DNA from: the human T2T-CHM13v2.0 reference genome, Homo sapiens
Length of the DNA: 64,000 nucleotides
Reading direction: 5' to 3' (one strand)
Assembly: GCF_009914755.1 (NCBI RefSeq)
Contig: NC_060939.1
Part shown: in pieces, positions 301 through 11,019 of the stretch
Position numbering within the stretch: position 1 is the first letter of the stretch
How the letters are laid out: each line of letters opens with the position of its first letter
Notes under the pieces: generated by a model
The model's database searches: none
Told to the model about the DNA's origin: nothing
The model's input: the letters and a program-made list of their open reading frames with translations, nothing else
Made by a program: the position numbers and the translations under genes

Positions 301-2639
301 TGAATAGACAGTTTTGAAAATTTTACAATCTTATGAAGACAAATTAATACAGAATTTTCTGAGCTAGGGTGTAAACGGCTTTTCTGGGGCAAGATTATAG
401 AGATTAAGAAAATGAGGTAGGGAGAAATTGAGCTACATTATTGTCAAGTTTAGCTTGCTGGGAGTTAAAACAAAACAAAAAAACAAAACTGAAGTCTTGG
501 ACTTATTAATAACTATTCCTGGCTTCCTTCCCTCTGCTAAACATGGATTGTCAGATTTCTCTCTGTGAGTTGTCCTCATCCACTACTAGAGTCAGTCCCT
601 GCACTGTATTCCCTGGCAATGATTTTGCAATGAGTTTCATTCAGGTTCTTAACACTTTAGGATAATGTGAACGTTCTCCTTTAGCTTCTCTCTGCTTCCA
701 ATGTCTTCCATTTCTATCTTCCCTGCACACAGAACAGTTTATTTATCTTTCTTAAATACGGCAACTACTCTCAATTGTCTAGAGGATAAAGCACAACACT
801 TTTAAACTTTACCCAACTAGCCTAGAAAAAAATTTCTCATATTTGTTATCTCACAGATACTAGAATATATTGATTTATACCTACTTCTTTTTCCCACACA
901 AATTAGCCCACTATGAATAACCTCCACAGTCTCTTTTTTGTTGTTGTTGTTATCTATCTGAATTCTGCCCATTTAAGGTAAACTGATGTCTACAATTACT
1001 CCTGCTCAAGTACTTCTAGAGCCTTCTAACATCTGGTATCCAATTCCGTCTTTAAAGTACCTACCTACTACCATGGTTTCAGTTTTCTTGACTGTATCCT
1101 AACAGAAAAAGTAGTACAAAGGGATCACAAATGCAGAATAAAAGCTAGAAACATAGAATGATTAATACTCACAAATTTTAGAGGAATGGATGGATAGTTT
1201 CATTGTAATTGAAAGTGCGGAGGATTTCTAAGAATTAGTAGACTTTAAAGCATTATTTCAGTGAATCCGTGGCTGAGCACCTACTCTAATCTGCCATCAG
1301 CCATAACGAGAAAAGGAGAATAAACCACGGATTACAAGGCCTTCCCTTCAAGGCTGGTCTTGTTTATTTCTGAATGTCTTCACAGAGAACTCAGTTCTAA
1401 TTTTGCAGAGTTTTATGTTACATGCATAGGACAGAAAATAGTGACTAGGGAAGCTCTGAGATTTCTAGCATGCCTGTTGAATAAATAATACTATTTTTTC
1501 AACTTTCTTACTGCTTTCATCTTAGGATCTACAGCACTCTAAAATACTAGTCAAACTTCAGAATACTCCTGTACTAAGCTTATGGGTGATCTTTTTCTGA
1601 GATTTACTAAGGGGAAAATTTGATGGATCGCAGGCTGCCAAGCAAGTTCCCTGGAAGATGCAGATCAGACCAAGGAGCAGCCTTTTTGCCACAACAGGTA
1701 GTCATGTTACTGCTTCAGGACTGCAAGATGGAATAGATGAAAATGTGTTCATGTAGGTGGCCTTAAGAATGTCACACAGAATTTGAAAAGTGAGAGCTTA
1801 TCCTTAGAAAAAGAAAAAGGCTAAAGGCTGGTAGACATAAGAGATAGGACTGGAGACTTGGAGAACAGGCTGATATCTTCTTAAATGCTGGGCAGACTTT
1901 AAAAAAAATTCTGTGGTCTGTTTTTGCTAACTAGACCCTATATACTCTTCTTAGTAACATCCTTACATGGAAATAACCATCTTTGTGCCATTAGTTCAGT
2001 CTCAGATGGAAAGAATGAGAAATCATCTAAATAGAGATGCAGAAAAGATTTAGCAGGATGAAAAGAACTGAACAGCACCGAGAGATGGGTGATATATAGT
2101 TCTGGAATCATACATTCAAAACACAAGCTGGTGAGACATTTAGAGAAAACACTTTGCATGCACTTGTCTTCAGCCCTCTAGCCCACGAATCAAAGCAGTG
2201 TTTCAGGACAACCAAGGGTTCTTTGAATCATCTCTCGTATTCCTGTGGGACTTCCCTAGTCTTTGGATCCCTCACATTGCTCACTGCTCTGTGTCTCAAG
2301 CCTCGTCTCCTTGACATCCATATGGATTAGCTTTCTGGCTGCCAGTTTAGCACCATTTCCTTGATTCTGAGAACTTTACACATAGGTATCCTGCCATTTA
2401 CATTCCACATGGCTCCTCACACATGCGTACAACATCCATCAATTCATTTCTTTATAAATCTGAAATTCAGTGAGTTCCAACCATATGCTAAGGACTGTGC
2501 TAGGTGCTGGAAATCAGTAGTGAGCAACACACTGATTTTTAGGAGTTTATGTGTTAAGAGGAGAGGGACTAAAATATTAAAAATTATTTAAACAAAAAGT
2601 ATTTGTATAAACGTCATGTAGAAAAACATAGAATGTTTG

Positions 2640-3030
2640 ATGGCAAATAAAACTCCTTATCTAGGGCTTCAGGTGCATTGTCCCAGAGGTGTCACCTCTA
2701 GACTAAGACCTATGGCTATTGAATTTGAAGGGACATGGGGCGGAATAGAGTGGCGAGGACTCCTGGGTAGGTGCCTTTTGTGAAATTCTGAGTTAGGAAG
2801 GATCTGTTCTCTTTGAGGAATGAGTGTAGGCTAATGCCACTGGAGCAGATTAAGCATGAGGGAGGAAGGCTTCGTCTTGCTCTCCAAGAGGACAAATGCC
2901 TGGGTAGCAGAAAGGAAAATGAAGGAAAGGAAATGGATTCAACTGCTGATTTGGACCTGGGGACAATTCAGTTGAGGGTGTGAGGAAAGTGAGGTGGCCA
3001 GTATGGCTCCATGTTTCTAGATGAAGAAAG
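2640..3030 (-). mobile_element. L2 fragment (approximate bounds)
   Basis: Degenerate purine-rich L2-like sequence; boundaries are not sharp. Confidence 0.4.
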
Positions 3031-3164
3031 GACATCTGGGCAGCATCTGCCTGATGTTGGCCAAGCCTATGATATACAGCAAACAGGTGCCCAGTTTCAT
3101 CTGTCAAGAATAATATAAAATGTAGCAATACTTGTTCCCCTATTCACATATTTCTGAAAATAAG

Positions 3165-3190
3165 AGTGTGTGTGTGTGCCTGTGTGTGTA
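3165..3190. repeat. (GT)n microsatellite, interrupted
   Basis: gtgtgtgtgtgtgcctgtgtgtgt. Confidence 0.85.
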
Positions 3191-3782
3191 AGGTGTGGAA
3201 GTCAAGAAAAGGCTGCTGTCATGATCTCTGGGTAGTTTTTGAGAAAGGAGGAAAGGCCCAGGAAATAAAATGTAAATGAGATGCATAGTAATGGTGAAAT
3301 TAAAAAATGGAGTCGGAAGTAACCATGAATTAGATCATTAAGGCAGAATGTTCTGGAAGAACATGGAGAGGATAAACAGCTTAGCTGAGTTCTTGATTAC
3401 ATACAGAAGTGAAACCCTTGCATATGCACAAAATTATATTAATATAAGAAGTCTTTGATGTGATTAAAGTCAAGACATTAAACTTACTGAGCATATATGA
3501 GTCATTATTTGAAATTTTTGTATATTCAAATTAAGTTGTATTATTTTTCTGGATACAATTTTTTTATATATATATTTTTATTATACTTTAACTTTAGGGT
3601 ACATGTGCACAATGTGCAGGTTTCTTACATAAGTATACATGTGCCATGTTGGTGTGCTGCACCCATTAACTCGTCATTTACATTAGGTGTATCTCCTAAT
3701 GCTATCCCTCCCCCCTCCCCCCACCCCACAACAGGCCCCGGTGTGTGATGTTCCCCTTCCTGTGTCCAAGTGTTCTCATTGT

Positions 3783-7608
<3,826 letters not shown>

Positions 7609-7671
7609 TATGATGTTAGCTGGTTATTTTGCTTGTTAGTTGATGCAGTTTCTTCCTAGCATCGATGGCCT

Positions 7672-8687
7672 TTACAATTTGGCATGATTTTGTAGTGGCT
7701 GGTACCGATTGTTCCTTTCCATGTTTAGTGCTTCCTTCAGGTGCTCTTTTAGGGCAGGCCTGGTGGTGACAAAATCTCTCAGCATTTGCTTGTCTGTATA
7801 GTATTTTATTTCTCCTTCACTTATGAAGCTTAATTTGGCTGGATATGAAATTCTGGGTTGAAAATTCTTTTCTTTAAGAATGTTGAATATTGGTCCCCAC
7901 TCTCTTCTGGCTTGTAGAGTTTCTGCTGAGAGAGCTGCTGTTCGTCTGATGGGCTTTCCTTTGTGGGTAACCTGACCTTTCTCTCTGGCTGCCCTTAACA
8001 TTTTTTCCTTCATTTCAACTTTGGTGAATCTGACAATTATGTGTCTTGGAGTTGCTCTTCTCGAAGAGCATCTTTGTGGCATTCTCTGTGTTTCCTAATT
8101 TGAATGTTGGCCTGCCTTGCTAGGTTGGGGAAGTTCTCCTGGATAATATCCTGCAGAGTGTTTTCCAACTTGGTTCCATTCTCCCCGTCACTTTCAGGTA
8201 CACCAATCAGACGTAGATTTGGTCTTTTCACATAGTCCCATATTTCTTGGAGGCTTTCTTCGTTTCTTTTTATTCTTTTTTTTCTACACTTCTCTTCTTG
8301 CTTCATTTCATTCATTTGATCTTCAATCACTGATACCCTTTCTTCCAGCTGATCGAATTGGCTACTGAAGCTTGTGCATTCGTCACATATTTCTCGTGCC
8401 ATGGTTTTCAGCTCCATCGGGTCCTTTAAGGACTTCTTTGCATTGGTCATTCTAGTTAGCCATTTGTCTAATCTTTTCTCAAGGTTTTTAACTTCTTTGT
8501 GATGGGTTCGAACTTCCTCCTTTAGCTCAGAGAAGTTTGATCATCTGAAGCCTTCTTCTCTCAACTCATCAAAGTCATTATCCGTCCAGCTTTGTTCCAT
8601 TGCTGGTGAGGAGCTGCGTTCCTTTGGAGGAGGAGAGGCACTCTGATTTTTAGAATTTTCAATTTTTCTGTTCTGTTTTTTCCCCAT
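7672..8687 (-). pseudogene. ORF1: L1 ORF1 (RNA-binding chaperone), disrupted
   Basis: ATG at 8685-8687; motifs WDYVKRPNLRLIGVPE and ARREWGPIF...YPAKLSF. Premature TGA at 8541-8543 and a 1-nt frameshift near 8096. Confidence 0.95.
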
Positions 8688-9170
8688 CTTTGTGGTTTTA
8701 TCTTCCTTTGGTCTTTGATGATGGTGACGTACAGATGGGGTTTTGGTGTGGATGTCCTTTCTGTTTGTTAGTTTTCCTTCTAACTGTCAGGACCCTCAGC
8801 TGCAGGTCTGTTGGATTGTGCTGGAGGTCCACTCCAGACCCTGTTTGCCTGGGTATCAGCAGCGGAGTCTGCAGAACAGCGAATATTGCTGAACAGCAAA
8901 TGTTGCTGTCTGATCGTTCCTCTGGAGGTTTCAAATCAGAGGGGTACCTGCCTATGTGAGGTGTCAGTCTGCCCCTACTGGGGGGTGCCTCCCAGTTAGG
9001 CTACTCGGGGGTCAGGGACCCACTTGAGGAGACAGTCTGTCCATTCTCAGATCTCAAAATCCATGCTGGGAGAACCACTACCCTCTTCAAAGCTCAGTTG
9101 GAAATGCAAAAATCACCTGTCTTCTGCATCGTTCACACTGGGAGCTGTAGACTGGAGCTGTTCCTATTCA

Positions 9171-9179
9171 GCCATCTTG
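9171..9179 (-). promoter_or_regulatory. L1 5'UTR YY1 binding site (CAAGATGGC)
   Basis: gccatcttg located about 12-20 nt from the L1 5' end. Confidence 0.85.
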
Positions 9180-11019
9180 GAACCGCGCCTCTGGATACAA
9201 GTTTATTAAAATGAAGACAAACTTACATGGGAATATTGCCTGGAAAGTAGAATCAAATATGCAATAAATTTCTAGAAATTAACAAATGGTTTCATTTACA
9301 TTATAAGCAATTATTGATTTATAACCATTAATCTTTTCATTTGTTTTCTGATCTTATAAACACTTCAAATAACATTTATTTAAAAACTTTTTAATTGATT
9401 AAAAATTAATCTCAATAATTATAATAATTTTTGGATAAAGTTTACGTAATCATCATTATTATTAAAAATGTAAAAAGTCCAACTATATAAAGTTAAACCT
9501 GTACAGAAGACCACAAACTTATTCAAGCATATTTTTGCTTTGTCAAAAATCTTTTTCCCTTAACGTCAAACAAAAGATTATAGAGCTAAGTAGTACGTTT
9601 CTATGAAAAGAAAAATAACAATGACAACAATGAAAATAAAAGTCAGGACTTAAGCTAAGAAAGAATAGAAAACCTTAAGGAATATAATAGTGACAGGCAA
9701 TTTTAGCATTAATTATATAATCTCTTATTTAAAGTTAAACATCGCTATGAAAAAACTGAAACAGTCTCTTGCTGAATGTGATATGCCAGCTGAATAATGA
9801 GGTTTGGCTTCTAAGTAGCTTAAACTTAGCCTGGAAATGCAGATTGTTGGTATTTTCTCTGCCCTCCAAAATTGTGATAATGAAATCTTTTAGTCTTTCC
9901 ATTTCTGTTATACATAAATATGATAAAACAAGAACAAGAAAATATGTTTTCATTGCCTTAGGATGATGCATTTCAACTCAGAGTCTTCATATAATTAACA
10001 TACTATCAGAACTTCTACAATGGCAGTAGTCAATACTGAGAGCAAAAGGAATCCCAAAATTCTTCCATAACGAAATGTATTATTAGCAAAGATTTATTTA
10101 ACAATTTCAAAGTATTTTATAGTCTAAAAATCACATACATTCACACCTTTGTATATTTGAATAAATGCCTAAGAAAATGAAACCAATGTTTAAAGAAAAC
10201 ACATTTTTAAATTTTAAAGCAAAGATAATTTATAGCTCTAATTAAAATGTTAAATACCTCTTAAGTGTGTCTACGATTCATGGGCAAAGCAGTCAGTACT
10301 CTTGACGGATTTTATTTCTTGACAATTTTTGCTCACTTGAAATCCATAGAAAATATGCCCACAAGGTTAACAACAATTTTAGAATAACTTATGAATTGGC
10401 TTTTAGGTAAAGTTTCTGAATATTCCTTCTTGAGCTACATCCTGCTTCACACATAAATTATGATATAAATTGTTCTAAATGTAATATATATTATCGTTAC
10501 ATGTGATCAAGTGTCAAACATGTCCCCAAATACCTGTTCACCTCATCTGCATGACTGAATGGTAGAAGTTTTAGAGTTATTACCCCAAGCAACAATGTCA
10601 GCCATCTCTAATCTTCCCTACACTTCCCACAGTTCTCTCATAGATGACAATATGCCCTTCACCAAGATCCATCCTTTCTTAATTATATGGAAAACCTCAA
10701 TTTCATAACCCATGAACAGAAAGGAGAAAAATCTCTCATTCTTTTACTCTCTACAGTGCCAAATATACTGTTTGATTTTTCTCTTTCTGCCTCTCTGACT
10801 CTGTTTTCCTGTGTCTTTTTCTTTATCTTCTCTCTTTTTTAGTGATCAGGTAATTGCTTCTGGTCCATACTGTGGCCTCTTTTCCATAGTTTTATTTTCC
10901 AAGCGCGCTCTGCATTATCGATTCCTCTCCCTCTCTAGATTATACCAGTTCTCTATTTTTTAGTAGCTTCATTTTGGAAACACCAGCAGTGACATTTTTA
11001 TGAACACACTACATTTCCG

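What the first reader, a model, noticed from the sequence alone, without database searches (positions are those of the whole stretch)
9080..9190. Long L1 carries a precisely spliced 5'UTR (SpIRE97/622-type element)
Seen: the 5'UTR (9190 down to the ORF1 ATG at 8687) is only about 500 nt, against about 1 kb expected for this L1PA age. In L1 sense the sequence reads ...GCATTTCCAACTGAG|CTTTGAAGAGG..., with the junction between 9093 and 9092, 97-98 nt from the 5' end. Established: in intact L1PA, CTGAG is followed by the donor GTACCGG (about nt 98) and CTTTGAAG is preceded by the acceptor TCTGACAG (about nt 621). Elements lacking exactly this intron are the described SpIRE97/622 class. Inference: this copy was reverse-transcribed from spliced L1 mRNA. 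It kept the YY1 site but lost most of the internal promoter, the antisense promoter and ORF0, so it was probably transcriptionally crippled on arrival. The class is known; I cannot tell whether this locus is catalogued.
Basis: partly seen in the sequence, partly recalled or inferred. Interest (0 to 1): 0.8.

Follow-up and report, generated by a model that had tools for sequence, protein, structure and literature searches.

The report
Uncatalogued spliced LINE-1 copy (SpIRE97/622)
This is an old, dead LINE-1 retrotransposon copy that was made from a spliced LINE-1 RNA, a class described in 2018; this particular copy is not in the published list but is otherwise ordinary.

Summary
Window 3559-9190 (minus strand) is a 5.63-kb L1. 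Its 5'UTR is 503 nt, and ...CCAACTGAG joins directly to CTTTGAAGAG... between 9093 and 9092, 97-98 nt from the L1 5' end.

Twenty-seven unspliced relatives from the same genome carry an extra 498-530 nt (median 524) at exactly this point. It starts with GT in 24 of 27 and ends with AG in 25 of 27. The same junction 24-mer (up to 2 mismatches) occurs at 181 places genome-wide, against 0 for a reversed control.

The copy has a 14-15 bp target-site duplication, a degenerate poly(A) and a TTTT/A nick site. Two paralogous copies of the flanks are empty sites and confirm these.

The element is L1PA5-like, with both ORFs broken. No especially close spliced relative was found.

It meets the defining structure of SpIRE97/622 (Larson et al. 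2018). It is absent from that paper's S1 Table and S1 Data. The likely reason is that its junction region matches L1Hs-type probe proxies at only 85-88 of 100 positions.

About half of the exact-junction copies of this older type seem equally uncatalogued.

Verdict: a new member of a known kind, of low interest. The orthologue test in apes could not be run.

The parts
9191..9204 (-). 5' target-site duplication. The perfect core TTGTATCCAG is 9200-9191. The extended 14-bp copy reads AAACTTGTATCCAG, with one mismatch to the 3' copy. The A at 9190 may be a 15th TSD base.
   Evidence: The empty paralogous sites read ...TTTTAAT|AAAA(T/C)TGTATCCAGAAAAATAATA...
9093..9190 (-). L1 5'UTR 'exon 1': the canonical 5' terminus through ...CCAACTGAG. 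It holds the YY1-box region CAAGATGGCTG, about 9179-9169.
   Evidence: It aligns at 93-98% to the first 98 nt of 39 other L1 5' ends.
9092..9093 (-). Splice junction (97/622 type): ...CTGAG|CTTTGAAG...
8688..9092 (-). L1 5'UTR 'exon 2' (405 nt), from CTTTGAAGAG to the base before the ORF1 ATG.
8813..8940 (-). About 128 nt corresponding to the '129-bp' ZNF93-target segment, which older L1PA copies keep and L1PA1/PA2 copies lack. It contains the alternative acceptor ...ttctgcag| at 8871/8870 that the 97/853 class uses.
   Evidence: One search compared with catalogued PA1/PA2 and PA3 sequences shown. One search gives the paper's description. L019's join maps to element position 321. The boundaries are approximate.
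7672..8687 (-). ORF1 remnant. It has a stop at codon 49, a frame change near 8040-8080 and many later stops.
   Evidence: One search finds Tnp_22_trimer, Transposase_22 and Tnp_22_dsRBD.
3783..7412 (-). ORF2 remnant in at least 4 open pieces. The endonuclease piece is 6924-7412, the RT piece 5350-5826 and the C-terminal pieces 3783-5353.
   Evidence: One search finds Exo_endo_phos and RVT_1. Colinearity with siblings is shown.
3559..3782 (-). 3'UTR and a short degenerate poly(A) (...AATAAAAATATATATATAAAAAAA, about 3582-3559).
3549..3562 (-). 3' target-site duplication AAAATTGTATCCAG (perfect core 3558-3549). The first four A's cannot be told apart from the poly(A).

Best explanation
An L1PA5-type LINE-1 RNA was transcribed from the canonical +1 of a full-length source element. 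It was spliced inside its 5'UTR, from the donor G98U99 to the acceptor A620G621. L1 endonuclease and reverse transcriptase then inserted a copy of it by target-primed reverse transcription at a TTTT/A site on distal chr15, roughly 20 million years ago.

The new copy arrived with both ORFs but without nt 98-621 of the 5'UTR. That segment holds most of the sense-promoter transcription-factor sites, the primary antisense promoter and the ORF0-type antisense ORF. The RUNX3 site that overlaps the donor was also destroyed.

The copy was therefore transcriptionally crippled on arrival. It has since decayed into an immobile fossil.

Shown here: the structure, the GT...AG bounds in relatives, the TPRT hallmarks and the empty paralogous sites.

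Inferred: that the segment was removed in the RNA rather than in the DNA, the age, and the promoter defect. The promoter defect is taken from published assays on L1.3-based constructs.
For: 1. The join is at 9093|9092, 97-98 nt from the L1 5' end.

2. Of 29 L1 5' ends fetched with the first 98 nt, 27 carry an extra segment exactly at the join.
- It is 498-530 nt long, median 524.
- It begins GT in 24 of 27 and ends AG in 25 of 27.
- The two alignment blocks overlap only by the 'AG' shared by the two exon ends.
- The paper defines the class by a 524-nt loss, nt 98-621 of L1.3.

3. The same junction recurs widely.
- There are 181 places with up to 2 mismatches, 49 of them exact, against 0 for the reversed control.
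- All 40 of 40 scored hits of a 151-nt junction-spanning query cover the junction.
- None of these shares the window's flank. The 5' flank has only two other copies in the genome, and both lack the L1.

4. TPRT hallmarks are present.
- There is a perfect 10-bp direct repeat, extendable to 14-15 bp, plus a poly(A) remnant.
- The nick site is TTTT/A, read from two empty paralogous sites.
- This matches the class description.

5. The element is colinear end to end with 15 of 20 fetched siblings. Its length of 5,632 bp falls within the 5,577-5,644 bp of most catalogued full-length PA4/PA5 entries.

6. Other internal deletions seen in relatives (L033, L035, L049) have breakpoints away from the splice sites.

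7. The published functional data on L1.3-based constructs show a severe promoter defect.
- The SpIRE97/622 5'UTR gives about 7-fold luciferase activity over background, against about 267-fold for wild type.
- It gives about 7% of wild-type retrotransposition from its own promoter.
Against: - No orthologous primate allele could be examined, so a deletion after insertion is excluded only by probability, not by observation.
- The 2-nt 'AG' microhomology means the deleted block could formally be placed in three registers, and only one of them is GT...AG.
- In the paper's own RT-PCR, the 97/622 splice was not detected from a wild-type L1.3 5'UTR in HeLa cells (section 11 passage). The splicing event is therefore inferred from genomic copies, not observed.
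Confidence: 0.86

Rival explanations
1. Second-generation SpIRE. The template RNA was an unspliced transcript of a parent element that already had the 97/622 structure. Splicing would then have happened one or more generations earlier, and this copy would show that SpIREs of that age could still propagate.
For: - A SpIRE97/622 5'UTR keeps weak promoter activity and about 7% of wild-type retrotransposition.
- A 2025 preprint reports one catalogued SpIRE (in RAP1GDS1) that co-opted a host promoter and produced offspring.
- With about 2% of full-length copies being SpIREs, a rough prior is that several per cent of SpIREs are second generation. This prior is my inference.
Against: - No especially close spliced relative was found. 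Non-CpG identity to 15 full-length siblings is 93.9-95.3%, the usual distance within this age class.
- Over the shared 960 nt the nearest copy is an unspliced one (L031, 95.6%).
- No cluster of rare variants is shared with any spliced copy.
- Spliced and unspliced copies are interspersed in the tree.
- There is no 5' transduction, because the TSD abuts the canonical L1 terminus.
- Only 24 of about 180 junction-bearing copies were compared, so a parent could have been missed.
Confidence: 0.07
2. Change at the DNA level after insertion. A full-length L1 inserted, and later either lost nt 98-621 by a genomic deletion or acquired the spliced 5'UTR by gene conversion from another SpIRE.
For: - Internal deletions do occur in L1 copies (L033, L035 and L049).
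- The 'AG' microhomology at the two ends could in principle support a microhomology-mediated deletion.
- About 180 potential gene-conversion donors exist.
Against: - A random deletion in a 5'UTR of about 1,030 nt has on the order of 5x10^5 possible start and end pairs. Hitting this pair, with its 3 equivalent registers, has a probability of order 10^-5 (my estimate). By contrast about 2% of full-length L1PA1-6 copies carry exactly this join.
- The three other deletions seen have unrelated breakpoints.
- The window's 5'UTR is no closer to any one spliced copy than to unspliced ones. A recent conversion tract would be expected to show such closeness.
Confidence: 0.04
3. Not an independent insertion. 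The copy arrived by segmental duplication of another SpIRE locus.
For: The flanks do belong to a duplicated segment, with paralogues on chr13 (91.87 Mb) and chr15 (32.29 Mb).
Against: Both paralogues lack the L1 and show the uninterrupted target site. No other junction-bearing place shares the flank.
Confidence: 0.01

Closest known systems
SpIRE97/622 (Larson et al. 2018, PLoS Biol 16:e2003067; PMC5860796)
   Same: - Same donor and acceptor pair, and the same loss of about 524 nt of 5'UTR.
- Full-length otherwise, with a TSD, a poly(A) and a TTTT/A nick site.
- Its subfamily lies within the reported PA1-PA6 range, and its length is like the catalogued PA4/PA5 entries.
   Different: - It is not among the 116 catalogued loci.
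- Its junction region matches L1Hs-type probe proxies at only 85-88 of 100 positions, under the paper's stated >95% filter.
- Real empty paralogous sites are available here, instead of a reconstructed empty site.
SpIRE97/853, SpIRE97/790 and SpIRE97/976 (same paper; 97/790 and 97/976 first found by Belancio and colleagues, as cited there)
   Same: They use the same donor G98U99 and the same route: spliced L1 RNA followed by TPRT. The 97/853 acceptor is present in this element's retained 129-bp-type segment, at window 8871/8870.
   Different: They use other acceptors. This copy used A620G621, so it keeps 405 nt of downstream 5'UTR and an untouched ORF1 start.
Processed pseudogenes (L1-mediated retrocopies of spliced cellular mRNAs)
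   Same: Intron removed precisely at GT...AG, with a poly(A), a TSD and an L1 endonuclease target site.
   Different: Here the retrocopied spliced RNA is L1's own bicistronic RNA, acting in cis.
L1 copies with ordinary internal deletions
   Same: An L1 that has lost an internal block.
   Different: Their breakpoints are idiosyncratic and not at the splice sites.

Membership tests
SpIRE97/622 | An L1PA1-PA6 element that starts at or near the canonical L1 5' terminus | tested here: met
   the 5' end aligns with the full-length termini of relatives, (A)GGCGCGGTTCCAAGATGG against (A)GGGGCGGTTCC...; 14 of 16 diagnostic sites are PA5-type. PA6 is not formally excluded, because no PA6-labelled copy was in hand.
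SpIRE97/622 | 5'UTR nt 97 joined directly to nt 622 (loss of nt 98-621 of L1.3, 524 nt) | tested here: met
   the join is 97-98 nt from the 5' end; relatives carry a median of 524 extra nt at that point. L1.3 itself was not in hand, so the numbering is carried over by position and by the paper's description.
SpIRE97/622 | The missing block is bounded by the splice donor GU and the acceptor AG in unspliced elements | tested here: met
   GT in 24 of 27 and AG in 25 of 27 relatives. The exceptions are single-base decays (GC, AT, TT; AC, AT).
SpIRE97/622 | Hallmarks of endonuclease-dependent TPRT: a TSD of about 6-25 bp, a 3' poly(A), and a TTTT/A-like nick site | tested here: met
   a 10-bp perfect, 14-15 bp extended TSD, a degenerate poly(A), and TTTT/A read from two empty paralogous sites.
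SpIRE97/622 | Operational catalogue filter: more than 95% identity to the 100-nt L1.3 junction probe | tested here: not met
   88, 85 and 87 of 100 against three L1Hs SpIRE junctions used as proxies for the probe. This is a search threshold, not a biological criterion. Catalogued siblings scored 90-95 by the same measure, so the published filter was evidently applied to BLAT-aligned parts.
SpIRE97/622 | Reduced sense-promoter activity and reduced further retrotransposition | not testable with these tools
   Published only for L1.3-based constructs. Here it is inferred from the loss of the same segment.
SpIRE97/622 | The gap was present at the time of insertion, so the same junction appears in all orthologous filled alleles | not testable with these tools
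   No primate genome other than the window's own assembly is held. The two paralogues are empty sites, so they say nothing about the 5'UTR state.

The most novel reading that the evidence does not exclude
This copy is the offspring of an already spliced parent, not of a fresh splicing event. Together with the roughly two dozen equally uncatalogued PA5-type copies, that would mean SpIRE97/622 elements formed a low-level self-propagating lineage in the L1PA5 era rather than being uniform dead ends.
Probability: 0.07. Interest if true: 0.4.

Novelty: new member of a known kind. Interest (0 to 1): 0.15.

Why it matters
For this locus alone, very little. It is an intergenic, coding-dead fossil of a described class.

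Two side results are modestly useful:

- The published hg38 list of 116 SpIRE97/622 copies appears to miss many older, more decayed copies. The T2T assembly has 181 junction matches. About 23 of 48 other exact old-type junction places have no catalogue entry nearby. The share of L1PA4-PA6 insertions that came from spliced RNA may therefore be higher than the reported figure of about 2%.

- This locus has two natural empty-site paralogues. These fix its target site and nick site to the base, without reconstruction.

Tried and rejected
- **Full-length spliced versus unspliced tree:** I tried to fetch 28 more siblings and 27 full-length unspliced relatives. The comparison was therefore limited to the 960 nt already held.
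- **Pairing with L002:** the tree paired the window with the spliced copy L002. I rejected this as noise, because the two share no rare variants and an unspliced copy is closer.
- **Position 73:** this site is strongly associated with spliced status (p = 2e-6). I rejected it as ascertainment bias, because the unspliced set was selected by similarity to the window's own first 98 nt.
- **L033:** I suspected another splice class. It is an unspliced copy with an unrelated internal deletion.
- **Speek 2001 (PMC86790):** not held. Promoter positions were taken from Criscione et al. 2016 instead.
- **Segmental-duplication origin:** rejected.

Full report
**1. Observation**

Read on the minus strand, the window shows ...gatttttgcatttccaactgag|ctttgaagagggtagtgg.... 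The join lies between 9093 and 9092 (checked on the + strand).

- Upstream, the L1 begins at 9190/9189 with (A)GGCGCGGTTCCAAGATGGCTG.
- Downstream, the ORF1 ATG is at 8687.
- The 5'UTR is therefore 503 nt.

**2. The whole element**

The L1 runs from 9190 down to about 3559, which is 5,632 bp.

- It ends in ...AAAGTATAATAAAAATATATATATAAAAAAA.
- A perfect 10-bp direct repeat, TTGTATCCAG, flanks it at 9200-9191 and 3558-3549.
- It is colinear from end to end with 15 of 20 fetched sibling copies, at 91.0-93.5% identity. The spliced 5'UTR is therefore its only large structural peculiarity.

Both reading frames are broken.

- ORF1 has a stop at codon 49 and many more stops downstream. Its pieces carry the L1 trimerisation, RBD-like and dsRBD-like domains in two different frames.
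- ORF2 survives as at least four open pieces, with endonuclease and RVT_1 matches.

**3. Natural empty sites**

The 510 bp next to the L1 5' end has exactly two other copies in the assembly: chr13 at 91.87 Mb (94%) and chr15 at 32.29 Mb (92%).

In both, the 5' flank runs straight into the 3' flank with no L1. They read ...CATTTTAATAAAATTGTCCCCAGAAAAATAATAC... and ...CATTTCAATAAAACTGTATCCAGAAAATTAATAA....

Compared with the filled site, this gives:

- a TSD of 14-15 bp, AAAATTGTATCCAG(A), with one mismatch in the 5' copy;
- a bottom-strand nick site TTTT/A, the L1 endonuclease consensus that the class description names.

If the A at 9190 belongs to the TSD, the L1 starts at 9189 and the join is exactly 97 nt in.

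The paralogues also show that this copy is an independent insertion made after the duplication. It is not a duplicated SpIRE.

**4. What is missing**

A search of the same genome with the first 98 nt returned 29 other L1 5' ends that I examined.

- In 27 of them the window's 5'UTR aligns as two blocks. The blocks are separated by extra sequence and overlap only by 'AG'.
- One (L019) has a different join, into the 129-bp-type segment, which is the 97/853 pattern.
- One (L033) is unspliced but has an unrelated internal deletion.

In the 27, the extra block:

- is 498-530 nt long (median 524);
- begins GT in 24 of 27 (the exceptions are GC, AT and TT);
- ends AG in 25 of 27 (the exceptions are AC and AT);
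- sits in the context TTTCCAACTGAG|GTACCGGGTT...CCTGTCTGACAG|CTTTGAAGAGAG.

It matches the published definition: SD G98U99, SA A620G621, loss of 524 nt, nt 98-621 of L1.3.

**5. Recurrence**

- A 151-nt query spanning the join gave 40 scored hits, all covering the join at 89-93% identity.
- The junction 24-mer occurs 181 times with up to 2 mismatches (49 exact, including this locus). A reversed control occurs 0 times.
- Other internal deletions met in passing (L033, L035, L049) have unrelated breakpoints.

A random deletion reproducing this pair of breakpoints has a probability of order 10^-5 (my estimate). Removal of the segment as an intron in the RNA is by far the best explanation.

**6. 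Subfamily and age**

Ten of the 20 fetched siblings can be matched, by chromosome and a locally consistent offset, to S1 Table entries with subfamily labels. This matching is my inference.

- At the 16 sites fixed-different between three PA4-labelled and four PA5-labelled copies, the window carries the PA5 state at 14.
- Its non-CpG identity to full-length siblings is 93.9-95.3%. This is like PA5-labelled copies among themselves and lower than PA4 among themselves (96.4-96.5%).
- It keeps the roughly 128-nt segment (about 8940-8813) that catalogued PA1/PA2 copies lack.

I therefore call it L1PA5-like. PA6 is not formally excluded. An age of roughly 20 million years is recalled from the L1 literature, not computed here.

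**7. Fresh splice or SpIRE offspring?**

- Over the 960 nt shared by 25 spliced and 26 unspliced copies, the two kinds are interspersed in the tree.
- The window's nearest copy is unspliced (L031, 95.6% at non-CpG sites). Next comes a spliced copy (L044, 95.3%).
- The window shares no cluster of rare variants with any spliced copy.
- The one strong site association, at position 73, is an ascertainment artefact of how the unspliced set was chosen.

The published data leave room for rare second-generation copies:

- the SpIRE's own promoter gives about 7% of wild-type retrotransposition;
- one documented SpIRE gained offspring by co-opting a host promoter.

I give that rival about 7%.

**8. Functional reading**

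Retained:

- The YY1-box region, CAAGATGGCTG. It is identical in 14 of 50 relatives, and 24 of 50 have the CpG-intact CAAGATGGCCG. The known YY1 site is at about 20 bp.

Lost:

- The RUNX3 site that overlaps the donor.
- Five known transcription-factor sites.
- The primary antisense promoter at about 400 bp, and the second YY1 site at 448-453.
- An antisense ORF that starts at L1 position 439-454 with a conserved N-terminus in 12 of 27 unspliced relatives. I identify this ORF with ORF0 from recall of Denli et al. 2015, which I did not read here.

The published constructs with this deletion show about 7-fold luciferase activity against about 267-fold for wild type. 'Crippled on arrival' is thus a sound inference, but it was not tested on this sequence.

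**9. Catalogue status**

S1 Table of Larson et al. lists four chr15 SpIRE97/622 loci, at hg38 51.17, 70.73, 71.79 and 77.26 Mb.

S1 Data has six chr15 entries of all classes, none beyond 84.1 Mb. It does not contain this locus's TSD or flank strings. Long sequence runs are cut in the stored text, so the coordinates are the firmer evidence.

The window lies at T2T chr15 97.59 Mb, near the distal end, so the locus is not catalogued.

A likely reason is the paper's filter of more than 95% identity to a 100-nt L1.3 probe.

- The window's 100-nt junction region matches three L1Hs SpIRE junctions at 88, 85 and 87 of 100 positions.
- Ten catalogued siblings score 90-95.
- Ten uncatalogued siblings score 84-91.

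Of the 48 other exact old-type junction places, about 25 match a catalogue entry and about 23 do not (the matching by offsets is my inference).

A full-text search listed no paper holding both 'SpIREs' and 'T2T' among the 15 shown of 267. Two citing papers add no census. bioRxiv supplements were not examined.

**10. Verdict**

The element is a new, uncatalogued member of a known class. Its interest is low.

The one decisive test still open is the orthologous allele in other primates.

Noticed in passing
window 2000-3566 and 9190-10882; L041 (chr13:91,871,000-) and L042 (chr15:32,286,500-): The DNA on both sides of the L1 belongs to an old duplicated segment, with paralogues on chr13 and proximal chr15 (about 91-93% identity over at least 3.2 kb). 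Both paralogues lack the L1. The extent and origin of the duplication were not mapped.
   Followed up: partly
genome-wide; for example G000 C15:90517490, C2:228489446, C12:13954678: The 97/622 junction 24-mer has 181 matches in this T2T assembly, against 116 catalogued SpIRE97/622 in hg38. About 23 of 48 other exact old-type junction places have no catalogue entry nearby. The published list seems to undercount older, decayed copies.
   Followed up: partly
L019 (G000 C3:51,285,095-51,288,186): An L1 5' end where ...CTGAG joins directly to a point inside the 129-bp-type segment (element position 321). This is the 97/853 splice pattern. It probably corresponds to the catalogued SpIRE(97/853)-1 in DOCK3.
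   Followed up: partly
L049 (G000 C2:185,823,532-185,829,655); L033, L035: L049 carries the 97/622 junction, but after about 120 nt it jumps to the last roughly 560 nt of the L1. It is a spliced copy with a huge internal deletion. L033 and L035 are unspliced copies with other internal deletions.
   Followed up: no
window 8930-9190: According to the hub's repeat-mask list, masking of this L1 stops at 8929. The 5'-most 260 nt or so of the element, including the splice junction, are not soft-masked in NCBI's file although they are clearly L1.
   Followed up: no
L042 3987-6920: The chr15 32.29-Mb paralogue carries a different L1 3' portion (93% identical to window 3559-6469) about 2.3 kb from the empty site. 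It is unrelated to the insertion studied here.
   Followed up: no
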